Source: a virus
Lineage: Duplodnaviria; Heunggongvirae; Uroviricota; Caudoviricetes
Length of the DNA stretch: 5,115 nt
IMG/VR virus record: IMGVR_UViG_2541047434_000040
Reading direction: 5' to 3' (one strand)
Positions 403 to 435 of the stretch are shown here, one piece after another (within the stretch, counting starts at the first letter, position 1; each line of letters starts with the position of its first letter). Made by a program: the position numbers and the translations under genes. The notes beneath the pieces were generated by a model. It had not been told where the DNA came from and did not search any database. It saw nothing but the letters and a program-made list of their open reading frames with translations.

Positions 403-435
403 GTGTCCCATACATGCCCCATTGATGCCCCATAA
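403..435. repeat. Three tandem, helically phased ~11-bp direct repeats (gTGtCCCATAc / ATGCCCCATtg / ATGCCCCATaa)
   Basis: Direct reading: ATGCCCCAT at 414..422 and 425..433, with a degenerate copy GTCCCATAC at 405..413; period 11 bp. Lies between the inferred junction and the -35 of the DinI-like promoter. Confidence 0.45.

What the first reader, a model, noticed from the sequence alone, without database searches (positions are those of the whole stretch)
403..435. Three helically phased 11-bp direct repeats (ATGCCCCAT core) next to the inferred att junction
Tandem repeats with an 11-bp period place the same motif on one face of the helix, which is the typical geometry of arrayed protein-binding sites. 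They lie about 115 to 145 bp from the inferred junction, where integrase arm-type sites sit in lambda-like att regions, and about 15 bp upstream of the -35 of the DinI-like promoter, so they could instead be an operator or activator array.
Basis: seen in the sequence. Interest (0 to 1): 0.45.

Follow-up and report, generated by a model that had tools for sequence, protein, structure and literature searches.

The report
Integrase arm-binding sites of Stx1 prophage
The three 11-bp repeats are almost certainly the docking sites where the prophage's integrase grips one arm of its attachment site to cut the Shiga-toxin-1 prophage out of (or paste it into) the E. coli mlrA/yehV gene: a real but ordinary feature of this class of phage integration systems.

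Summary
Window 403-435 reads GTGTCCCATAC / ATGCCCCATTG / ATGCCCCATAA, with an exact 11-bp period. It starts 113 bp inside the prophage junction and ends 14 bp upstream of the DinI-like -35.

Over bases 1-1200 the window is 100% identical to the int-distal end of prophage Sp15 / VT1-Sakai in yehV (mlrA) of E. coli O157:H7.

- The same phased pair, GTGTCCCATGT ATGCCCCATAA, lies at the other prophage end, in the same orientation, inside the last codons of int.
- The integrase has an N-terminal Arm-DNA-bind_2 domain.
- 74 of 80 species-level relatives of this integrase keep the pair. In four of them it lies after the stop codon.
- In 35 distinct intact attP sites the second cluster starts 203-219 bp from the first (205-211 bp in the 30 found by the pattern scan), always in the same orientation.
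- P22 attP has the same 2 + 3 layout, with TGTCCCA.

The second interpretation, an operator for the DinI-like promoter, is not supported. In phages with other integrases that promoter module begins at the -35 and has no such repeats.

Verdict: a new, unannotated member of a known kind. Interest is modest.

The parts
403..413 (+). Arm-type integrase site 1 on the int-distal (P) arm, GTGTCCCATAC (heptamer TGTCCCA at 404-410). It corresponds to the first site of the distal pair that is conserved across the family.
   Evidence: Sequence. It sits 206 bp from the first int-proximal site, matching the 205-211 bp seen in the 30 scan-derived attPs (203-219 bp across all 35).
414..424 (+). Arm-type integrase site 2, ATGCCCCATTG (heptamer TGCCCCA at 415-421). 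It is the second site of the conserved distal pair.
   Evidence: relative position 217.
425..435 (+). Arm-type integrase site 3, ATGCCCCATAA (heptamer TGCCCCA at 426-432). This extra third phased copy is present in the Sp15 and yecE-type arms and in a few other attPs, for example L207.
   Evidence: relative position 228.
270..289 (+). The 20-bp att identity (core) duplicated at both prophage ends, CCTGTCACGTTACGCGCGTG. Within it and just beyond it is the inverted repeat GTCACG (273-278) / CGTGAC (286-291) around a 7-bp spacer TTACGCG (279-285). I infer that these are the core-type integrase sites and the overlap region.
   Evidence: Annotation of AP000400.1. Palindrome I2. Sequence. The assignment of the overlap region is inference.
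222..290 (+). 5' fragment of the host gene yehV (mlrA), truncated by the prophage insertion.
   Evidence: AP000400.1 feature yehV'. The translation MALYTIGEVALLCDINPVTLRA* can be read from the sequence.
313..331 (+). Conserved box GAAGATCGTCCAGGAGCGC just outside the core, function unassigned. It may be an accessory-protein site of the intasome.
   Evidence: Found at a fixed position (117-120 bp after the first proximal arm site, with up to 3 mismatches) in 18 of 35 distinct attPs, including the otherwise unrelated 933W-type arm.
339..351 (-). IHF-consensus-like site (TATCCAACCCTTG, 1 mismatch to WATCAANNNNTTR) between the core and the arm sites. It is a candidate bending site only.
   Evidence: The number of matches in the window is no higher than chance, so only its position is suggestive.
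370..396 (+). 2.7 tandem copies of a 10-bp unit (TCGATGAACT TCGACGAATT TCGCCGA) directly on the core side of the arm sites. These are candidate excisionase (Xis) binding sites, by inference.
   Evidence: TRF. Similar CGAAYTT-type 10-bp tandems occupy the same position in other attPs of the family (L185, L196, L238).
449..478 (+). Sigma-70-type promoter of the DinI-like gene (TTGACA, 18 nt, AAAAAT). It is a neighbour of the att arm, not part of it.
   Evidence: The homology boundary of this module lies at 449.
484..499 (+). LexA (SOS) box CTGTACATAACTACAG, which controls the DinI-like gene (CDS 515-763).
   Evidence: Pfam DinI hit, E = 1.2e-19.

Best explanation
The three repeats are the arm-type binding sites on the int-distal (P) arm of the attachment site of the Stx1 prophage Sp15 / VT1-Sakai. 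In the integrated state they belong to the junction that the lambda convention calls attR.

Proposed mechanism:
1. The phage integrase is a heterobivalent tyrosine recombinase. Its C-terminal domains bind and cut the core, GTCACG-TTACGCG-CGTGAC.
2. Its N-terminal Arm-DNA-bind_2 domain binds TG(T/C)CCCA(T) heptamers.
3. There are five such sites, all in one orientation. Two are 11 bp apart inside the 3' end of int, about 64-85 bp from the crossover. Three are 11 bp apart at about +121 to +153 on the other arm.
4. The 11-bp phasing places neighbouring N-domains on one face of the helix.
5. Bending between core and arm, by IHF-like and Xis-like sites, lets arm-bound protomers reach the core and assemble the intasome for integration (attP x attB in yehV) and, with Xis, for excision (attL x attR).

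What is shown: the sites, their geometry, their conservation and the presence of the domain. What is inferred: binding itself, which sites serve integration and which excision, and the accessory-factor sites.
For: 1. The other prophage end carries GTGTCCCATGT ATGCCCCATAA in the same orientation, 52-73 bp from the core, inside the last codons of int.
2. The integrase has Arm-DNA-bind_2 (PF12167, residues 7-70, E = 2e-24) plus the Phage_integrase catalytic domain.
3. A yecE-integrating phage has a different core and an integrase only 79% identical after residue 70. Its first 70 residues are 100% identical, it has the same three distal repeats, and it keeps the proximal pair in diverged coding context.
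4. A 933W-type phage (integrase 65% identical) and a Yersinia phage (51%) share no arm homology with Sp15 but have the same layout, with TGCCCCA.
5. Among 80 species-representative integrase relatives (44-73% identical), 74 have TG[CT]CCC-N5-TG[CT]CCC at the int 3' end. There were no other occurrences in 645 kb of strand-bases of the same loci. In four loci the pair lies after the stop codon. The two copies are read in different frames, so the DNA is conserved, not a peptide.
6. In 35 distinct intact attPs the distal cluster starts 203-219 bp after the proximal pair, and no site is ever on the other strand. Permuted-motif control scans gave 7 and 16 stretches against 93.
7. The N-terminal domain is more conserved than the rest of the integrase (100/79, 77/63 and 70/46 % identity). 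Two relatives with a different repeat (GTGCTAC) also have a different first beta-strand region in the N-domain.
8. P22 attP shows TGTCCCA x2 in the int 3' end, then the core, then CGTCCCA plus TGTCCCA x2.
9. Sp15 excises and circularises, about 40-fold more after mitomycin C, so the system is active (PMC2669165).
Against: There is no binding or mutational evidence for this phage, so everything rests on comparison.

The viral-contig scan selected for the motif. Its site counts cannot be used as an unbiased estimate of how often the motif is present; only the spacing and orientation are informative.

The distal arm is nearly identical among the closest relatives, so they add no independent support for the third copy.

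The third copy is not universal in the family, so its need is unknown.

The repeats lie only 14 bp from a promoter, so a transcriptional side role is not excluded.
Confidence: 0.9

Rival explanations
1. The repeats are an operator or activator array that controls the adjacent LexA-regulated DinI-like promoter. A phage or host regulator, or integrase itself acting as a transcription factor, binds upstream of the -35.
For: The array ends 14 bp upstream of the -35, so it overlaps the position of an UP element or class I activator site. There is precedent for arm-type sites overlapping a promoter and affecting it: KplE1 intS (PMC2951348).
Against: The promoter, LexA box and dinI module recurs in phages with unrelated integrases (CP-1639, 2H10, PhiR63_1). 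There the homology starts exactly at the -35 and nothing resembling the repeats lies upstream. The same motif pair occurs inside the int 3' end and in dozens of attPs that have no dinI gene next to them. LexA already accounts for regulation of this promoter.
Confidence: 0.06
2. The array has no function. It is a chance or slippage-generated short tandem repeat, or a non-functional relic copied from the int 3' end.
For: The array is short, the 9-mer count alone is not above chance, and TRF does not score it.
Against: None of 2000 shuffles gives a phased triple. The motif, its 11-bp phasing, its orientation and its roughly 207-bp distance from the int-proximal pair are kept across integrase relatives down to 44-50% identity, in flanks that are not homologous.
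Confidence: 0.02
3. The repeats bind the excisionase (Xis, DUF1233) or a host bending protein rather than integrase.
For: Directionality factors also bind phased direct repeats in the P arm. This phage encodes a DUF1233 excisionase.
Against: The same motif occurs on both arms, including the int-proximal arm, which is the pattern expected of integrase arm sites. A separate set of 10-bp tandem repeats (370-396) lies next to the array and is a better Xis candidate. The motif tracks the integrase N-domain. In P22 the equivalent heptamers occupy the positions I recall as footprinted integrase arm sites (sequence; the footprint data are from memory).
Confidence: 0.03

Closest known systems
Phage P22 attP (Int arm-type sites; Smith-Mungo, Chan & Landy 1994, J Biol Chem 269:20798, cited from memory because the paper is not held in the library)
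   Same: The heptamer class is the same (P22 TGTCCCA; Sp15 TGTCCCA and TGCCCCA). Both have a pair 11 bp apart inside the last codons of int, and three sites on the int-distal arm including an 11-bp-phased pair about 125-145 bp from the core. All sites are in one orientation, giving a 2 + 3 arrangement (sequence evidence). From memory, P22 was footprinted with three arm sites on the P arm and two on the P' arm.
   Different: The integrases are only about 23% identical. Pfam assigns the P22 N-terminus weakly to DUF6538, not to Arm-DNA-bind_2. P22's third distal site is separate, about 55 bp nearer the core, rather than a third phased copy. The P22 core lies in a tRNA gene, not in a protein-coding gene. 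The Xis proteins differ.
Phage lambda attP (arm-type sites P1, P2, P'1-P'3; Ross & Landy 1982)
   Same: Both use a heterobivalent tyrosine integrase. Both have five arm sites split between the two arms, at similar distances from the core (about 50-85 bp on the int side and 110-150 bp on the other). Adjacent sites are phased at 10-11 bp, and accessory Xis and IHF sites lie between core and arm. The relation of Sp15 to the yecE-type phage (same arm sites and N-domain, different core) resembles that of lambda and HK022.
   Different: The motif is unrelated (lambda C/AAGTCACTAT, from memory). In lambda the triple is on the int-proximal arm, and P2 is inverted relative to the others. In Sp15 the triple is on the int-distal arm and all sites are direct. 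The lambda Int N-domain belongs to a different Pfam family.
Predicted arm-type sites of mycobacteriophages (Cluster K, L5, Giles; PMC3203893)
   Same: Pairs of 11-bp repeats flank the attP core and are taken as integrase arm sites. The site consensus co-varies with substitutions in the integrase N-terminal region.
   Different: The motifs, hosts and integrase lineages differ. Some of those pairs are inverted relative to each other.

Membership tests
Arm-type (P/P') sites of a heterobivalent tyrosine-integrase attachment site | The cognate integrase has a separate N-terminal arm-binding domain in addition to the core-binding and catalytic domains. | tested here: met
   Pfam Arm-DNA-bind_2 (PF12167) at residues 7-70, E = 2.1e-24. 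Phage_integrase at residues 203-396, E = 4.7e-18.
Arm-type (P/P') sites of a heterobivalent tyrosine-integrase attachment site | A repeated motif, different from the core-type sequence, is present on both arms flanking the crossover core. | tested here: met
   Three copies at window 403-435 and two copies at L003 2859-2880, on the other side of the core. The core-type half-sites are GTCACG / CGTGAC.
Arm-type (P/P') sites of a heterobivalent tyrosine-integrase attachment site | The sites lie outside the core but within about 50-160 bp of the crossover, on phage-derived DNA. | tested here: met
   The int-distal sites lie at about +121 to +153 and the int-proximal sites at about -85 to -64 from the centre of the inferred 7-bp overlap.
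Arm-type (P/P') sites of a heterobivalent tyrosine-integrase attachment site | The sites travel and co-evolve with the integrase (its N-domain), independently of core specificity and of neighbouring genes. | tested here: met
   The yecE-type phage has the same N-domain and arm sites but a different core. 74 of 80 relatives keep the pair. The distal cluster lies 203-219 bp away in 35 attPs. The dinI module occurs without the repeats in phages with other integrases. The variant motif in L162 and L165 coincides with a variant N-domain, which counts as a single evolutionary event.
Arm-type (P/P') sites of a heterobivalent tyrosine-integrase attachment site | Sites for DNA-bending or directionality proteins (IHF, Xis) lie between the core and the arm sites. 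| tested here: inconclusive
   There are one-mismatch IHF-consensus matches at window 339-351 (-) and at L003 2909-2921. WATCA-N5-TTR lies at a fixed +50 in 33 of 74 relatives against a background of 0.004 per 70 bp. 10-bp tandem repeats lie at 370-396. There are no binding data.
Arm-type (P/P') sites of a heterobivalent tyrosine-integrase attachment site | The integrase N-domain binds the sites directly, and recombination requires them. | not testable with these tools
   This needs EMSA or footprinting and att-site mutagenesis. The only available fact is that Sp15 excises and circularises in vivo (PMC2669165).
Operator or activator array of the DinI-like promoter | The repeats are conserved together with the promoter they regulate. 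| tested here: not met
   In CP-1639, 2H10 and PhiR63_1 the conserved promoter, LexA box and dinI module begins at the -35. The upstream sequence is unrelated and lacks the motif.
LexA (SOS) boxes | A match to CTGT-N8-ACAG. | tested here: not met
   The only match in the window is at 484-499, downstream of the repeats. The repeats do not fit the pattern.

The most novel reading that the evidence does not exclude
The heptamer TG(C/T)CCCA and the fixed blueprint of two sites, about 207 bp, then two or three sites are shared by a large integrase clade. That clade includes several prophages that coexist in one O157 cell, such as Sp15 at yehV and the 933W-type Stx2 phage at wrbA, whose integrase N-domains are 77% identical.

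Integrases of co-resident prophages may therefore bind each other's arms. This could help or hinder heterologous excision and so contribute to the prophage-prophage interactions seen in O157.

In addition, integrase bound at the third site (425-435), 14 bp from the -35, may modulate the SOS-induced DinI-like gene and so couple excision to control of RecA activity.
Probability: 0.15. Interest if true: 0.5.

Novelty: new member of a known kind. Interest (0 to 1): 0.3.

Why it matters
Practical value. The result gives the functional extent of attP, attL and attR for the yehV-integrating Stx1 phages and for their yecE, ompW and wrbA relatives. Those records annotate only the short core duplication. 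It shows that the last codons of int and about 150 bp at the tail-fibre/dinI end belong to the recombination site. This matters for three things:
- designing clean prophage deletions;
- designing PCR assays of mlrA (yehV) occupancy or restoration;
- interpreting why some degraded prophages can no longer excise.

Family-level blueprint. The layout is a pair in the int 3' end, an IHF-like site at +50, the core, and a pair or triple at about +207. It could be used to find att boundaries automatically for this integrase clade.

Conceptually the finding is expected behaviour for a lambda- or P22-type integrase.

Tried and rejected
1. TRF and the repeat finder did not report the array because it is too short. 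I used a pattern search and a custom shuffle test instead.

2. The search for related loci in viral contigs with the single integrase returned only 98-100% identical copies, which were uninformative. I replaced it with a profile search of one genome per species.

3. The phi330 phage record appeared to offer an intact attP, but it carries the 20-bp core twice in tandem. This is probably an artefact of joining prophage ends, so I did not use it as independent evidence.

4. I tested whether the TGCCCCA layout is used far beyond this integrase family. The scan also hit contigs with very distant integrases: 9 of 10 adjacent ORFs are tyrosine integrases. Permuted-motif controls gave 7 and 16 hits against about 37 non-family hits. 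The excess is only 2- to 5-fold, so I make no claim.

5. I tested whether the conserved box (313-331) or the alternative inverted-repeat arm type correlates with a different excisionase family. Both arm types sit next to the same 82-aa Xis family, so I make no assignment.

6. The P22 att papers (PMID 8051182, which I first queried under the mistyped id 8051183; PMID 10400581; PMC2519534; PMC93925) are not held in the library. P22 footprint facts are therefore cited from memory. Only the P22 sequence layout is tool-based.

7. A search of solved structures found no homologue of the N-domain. I did not attempt structure prediction.

Full report
WHERE THE WINDOW COMES FROM

Bases 1-1200 are 100% identical to the chromosome of E. 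coli O157:H7 Sakai, EDL933 and many other O157 strains, at the yehU-yehV (mlrA) locus. Bases 280-1200 are 100% identical to the prophage record VT1-Sakai, AP000400.1. Over its whole length the window is at best 99.1% identical to any complete RefSeq E. coli genome.

AP000400.1 and the Sakai genome annotate the following, given here in window coordinates (window position = AP000400.1 position minus 7781):
- a truncated yehV' at 222-290;
- a 20-bp att duplication at 270-289 (CCTGTCACGTTACGCGCGTG);
- prophage Sp15 from about 291;
- a promoter at 449-477;
- a LexA box at 482-501;
- a DinI-like gene at 515-763.

Next come tail-fibre, lom and J-like genes on the minus strand. The window therefore holds the prophage end that is distal from int.

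THE OBSERVATION

The three units are GTGTCCCATAC (403-413), ATGCCCCATTG (414-424) and ATGCCCCATAA (425-435), with a period of exactly 11 bp. The 9-mer ATGCCCCAT occurs exactly twice. Copy 1 differs from it at two positions.

This is the only exact 9-mer tandem with a period of 10-12 bp in the window. None of 2000 dinucleotide-preserving shuffles produced a phased third copy. The stated distances are right: the array starts 113 bp inside the prophage and ends 14 bp before the -35.

THE OTHER PROPHAGE END

In AP000400.1, xis and int are transcribed towards the second att copy. Int stops 38 bp before the core. Inside its last codons lies GTGTCCCATGT ATGCCCCATAA, on the same strand as in the window, with the same 11-bp period, 52-73 bp from the core.

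The reconstructed attP therefore reads as follows:
- a pair of sites (relative positions 0 and 11);
- an IHF-like match;
- the core, with the inverted repeat GTCACG / CGTGAC around a 7-bp spacer TTACGCG;
- three sites at relative positions 206, 217 and 228.

THE PROTEIN THAT SHOULD READ THE SITES

The 428-aa integrase has an N-terminal Arm-DNA-bind_2 domain (PF12167, E = 2e-24) and a tyrosine-recombinase catalytic domain. The upstream gene is a DUF1233 excisionase. The catalytic half resembles solved tyrosine integrases, including lambda Int. No structure exists for a relative of the N-domain.

COMPARATIVE EVIDENCE

(a) A Stx2 phage integrated in yecE has a different core and an integrase that is 83% identical overall. 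The first 70 residues are 100% identical, against 79% for the rest. Its int-distal arm is nearly identical from the core outwards, including the three repeats. Its int 3' end, whose DNA has diverged, still reads GTGTCCCATAC ATGCCCCATAG. This is the lambda/HK022 situation: same arm specificity, different core specificity.

(b) A 933W-type phage (integrase 65% identical, N-domain 77%) shares no arm homology with Sp15 apart from one short box. It has GTGCCCCAGAC GTGCCCCAAAG in the int 3' end and four TGCCCCA sites (2 + 2) on the other arm.

(c) A Yersinia phage (integrase 51% identical, N-domain 70%) has ATGTCCCACCC ATGCCCCATAA in the int 3' end and TTGCCCCATTC TTGCCCCATTT on the other arm.

(d) I surveyed 80 integrase relatives, one per bacterial species, 44-73% identical, from Enterobacterales, Vibrionaceae and Aliagarivorans.
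- 74 have TG[CT]CCC-N5-TG[CT]CCC within 80 bp of the integrase C-terminus.
- There was not one other occurrence on either strand elsewhere in the same loci (645 kb of strand-bases).
- In four loci the pair lies just after the stop codon.
- Because 11 is not a multiple of 3, the two copies are read in different frames.

Together these points show that the DNA repeat is conserved, not a peptide. Positions not fixed by the search pattern (A after each hexamer, A before the second, T/A before the first) are also conserved, while the flanks are not.

(e) A pattern scan of viral contigs for pair, 175-205 nt, then a third heptamer gave 93 stretches. Permuted-motif controls gave 7 and 16. At least 49 of the 93 have an Sp15-like integrase gene (at least 40% identical) ending at the first pair. 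After removing near-duplicates and adding the five attPs assembled by hand, 35 distinct attPs remain. The distal cluster starts 203-219 bp after the first proximal site (205-211 bp in the 30 scan-derived ones). It is a pair in most, a triple or 2 + 2 in some. No site is ever on the opposite strand. Sp15's first two copies (206, 217) correspond to the universal pair. The third (228) is an extra copy also seen in L207.

(f) Two relatives (L162, L165) have GTGCTAC-N4-GTGCTWC instead. They alone have ..GVAPNKNHLRIWF.. in place of ..GVENHGGSLRIWF.. in the N-domain. This is one evolutionary event, suggestive of co-variation.

THE PROMOTER ALTERNATIVE

The DinI-like promoter, LexA box and gene recur in phages with unrelated integrases: CP-1639 at ssrA, 2H10 and PhiR63_1. 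In an alignment, homology with the window starts at the -35 (window 449). The upstream DNA is unrelated and lacks the motif. The repeats therefore belong to the int/att module, not the dinI module.

LexA already explains regulation of this promoter. A side effect of integrase bound 14 bp from the -35 remains possible. Arm-type sites overlapping a promoter do affect it in KplE1 (PMC2951348). Nothing here shows such an effect.

CLOSEST KNOWN SYSTEM

In P22 (record AF527608.1) the int 3' end reads TGTCCCAAATATGTCCCA. The annotated attP core follows about 65 bp later. The other arm then carries CGTCCCA followed by TGTCCCATTTTTGTCCCA, about 127-144 bp from the core (ST160). That is the same heptamer class and the same 2 + 3 split as Sp15, even though the integrases are only about 23% identical.

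From memory, these are the integrase arm-type sites footprinted by Smith-Mungo, Chan and Landy (1994). I could not retrieve that paper or the later P22 papers. The comparison with lambda (five sites, 10-11-bp phasing, similar distances, different motif, triple on the other arm, one site inverted) also rests on textbook knowledge.

Pairs of 11-bp repeats flanking the core are the accepted signature used to predict arm sites in mycobacteriophages (PMC3203893).

FUNCTIONAL CONTEXT

Sp15 excises and circularises spontaneously, and about 40-fold more after mitomycin C, in O157 Sakai (PMC2669165). The Int/Xis/att system that would use these sites is therefore active.

OTHER FEATURES OF THE ARM (NOT ASSIGNED)

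- A box, GAAGATCGTCCAGGAGCGC (313-331), sits at a fixed +117 to +120 in 18 of 35 attPs.
- An IHF-consensus-like match lies at 339-351 on the minus strand.
- 10-bp tandem repeats at 370-396 abut the arm sites. Similar CGAAYTT tandems occur in other attPs of the family.
- On the int-proximal arm, WATCA-N5-TTR lies exactly 50 bp after the first site in 33 of 74 relatives.

These are plausible IHF and Xis sites. That is inference only.

LITERATURE AND VERDICT

I found no open-access paper that describes arm-type sites for yehV-, yecE- or wrbA-integrating Stx phages. The GenBank records annotate only the core.

The feature is real. It is a new, unannotated member of a well-known kind of site, closest in layout and motif to P22 attP.

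Confidence in the arm-site explanation is 0.9. Interest is modest, at 0.3. The value is mainly practical (true att boundaries for Stx prophages), plus a tidy family-wide blueprint.

Noticed in passing
window 273-291: Inside and just beyond the annotated 20-bp att duplication is a perfect inverted repeat, GTCACG / CGTGAC, around a 7-bp spacer TTACGCG. This is the classic layout of two core-type half-sites around an overlap region. The yecE-type phage has GTCAC(T/A)-TTAACTG-C(A/G)TG(A/G)(C/A) at the same place.
   Followed up: partly
window 313-331: A conserved box, GAAGATCGTCCAGGAGCGC, preceded by ATTTTTAAAAATCGA. It lies at a fixed 117-120 bp from the first int-proximal arm site in 18 of 35 distinct attPs, including the 933W-type arm, which is otherwise unrelated. 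Its function is unknown. It does not track a different excisionase family.
   Followed up: partly
window 370-396: A second tandem array with a 10-bp period and 2.7 copies (TCGATGAACT TCGACGAATT TCGCCGA) lies directly next to the arm sites, with a further copy, TCGACGAAGATCG, at 308-320. Similar CGAAYTT tandems sit at the same place in other attPs. These are candidate Xis sites.
   Followed up: partly
L094-L173, about 50 bp after the first int-proximal arm site; L003 2909-2921 in Sp15: An IHF-consensus-like motif, WATCA-N5-TTR, lies at exactly +50 (once at +49) from the first arm site in 33 of 74 integrase relatives. The background rate is 0.004 per 70 bp. It is likely the H' bending site of this att family.
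   Followed up: partly
L009 2225-2266 (phage vB_EcoS_phi330, PV189401.1): The deposited phage genome carries the 20-bp att core twice in tandem between int and dinI. This looks like an artefact of circularising prophage coordinates rather than a true attP.
   Followed up: no
L162 and L165 (Pantoea sp. and an Enterobacterales MAG), int 3' ends: These two integrase relatives carry GTGCTAC-N4-GTGCTWC in place of the TGCCCCA pair. They also have a distinct N-domain segment (GVAPNKNHLRIWF). This may be a natural switch of arm-site specificity.
   Followed up: partly
L177-L265 (viral contigs, e.g. L181, L195, L201, L236, L243, L248, L252): The layout TGCCCCA-N4-TGCCCCA, about 200 bp, then TGCCCCA-N4-TGCCCCA also occurs directly after the stop codon of very distant tyrosine integrases (19-25% identical or undetectable by tblastn), in AT-rich and GC-rich contigs. 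The excess over permuted-motif controls is only about 2- to 5-fold, so the significance is unclear.
   Followed up: partly
window 3448-5064, minus strand: The J-like host-specificity gene is split into three overlapping or adjacent ORFs in different frames (3448-3948, 3996-4544, 4420-5064). One break corresponds to a 1-bp deletion at about 4029 relative to Sakai. The window is 99.1% identical to Sakai over 1-4200 (35 substitutions, 2 single-base indels). No complete RefSeq genome matches the whole window exactly.
   Followed up: partly
window 1402-2715, minus strand: The tail-fibre protein (437 aa) contains a long collagen-like G-X-Y tract ([31 protein letters not shown]...) and an alanine/serine/glutamate-rich coiled segment.
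   Followed up: no
window 1092-1116: A perfect 10-bp inverted repeat, AAAACCGGAG / CTCCGGTTTT, with a 5-nt loop lies between the small ORF region and the tail-fibre assembly-like gene. It is probably a bidirectional terminator.
   Followed up: no
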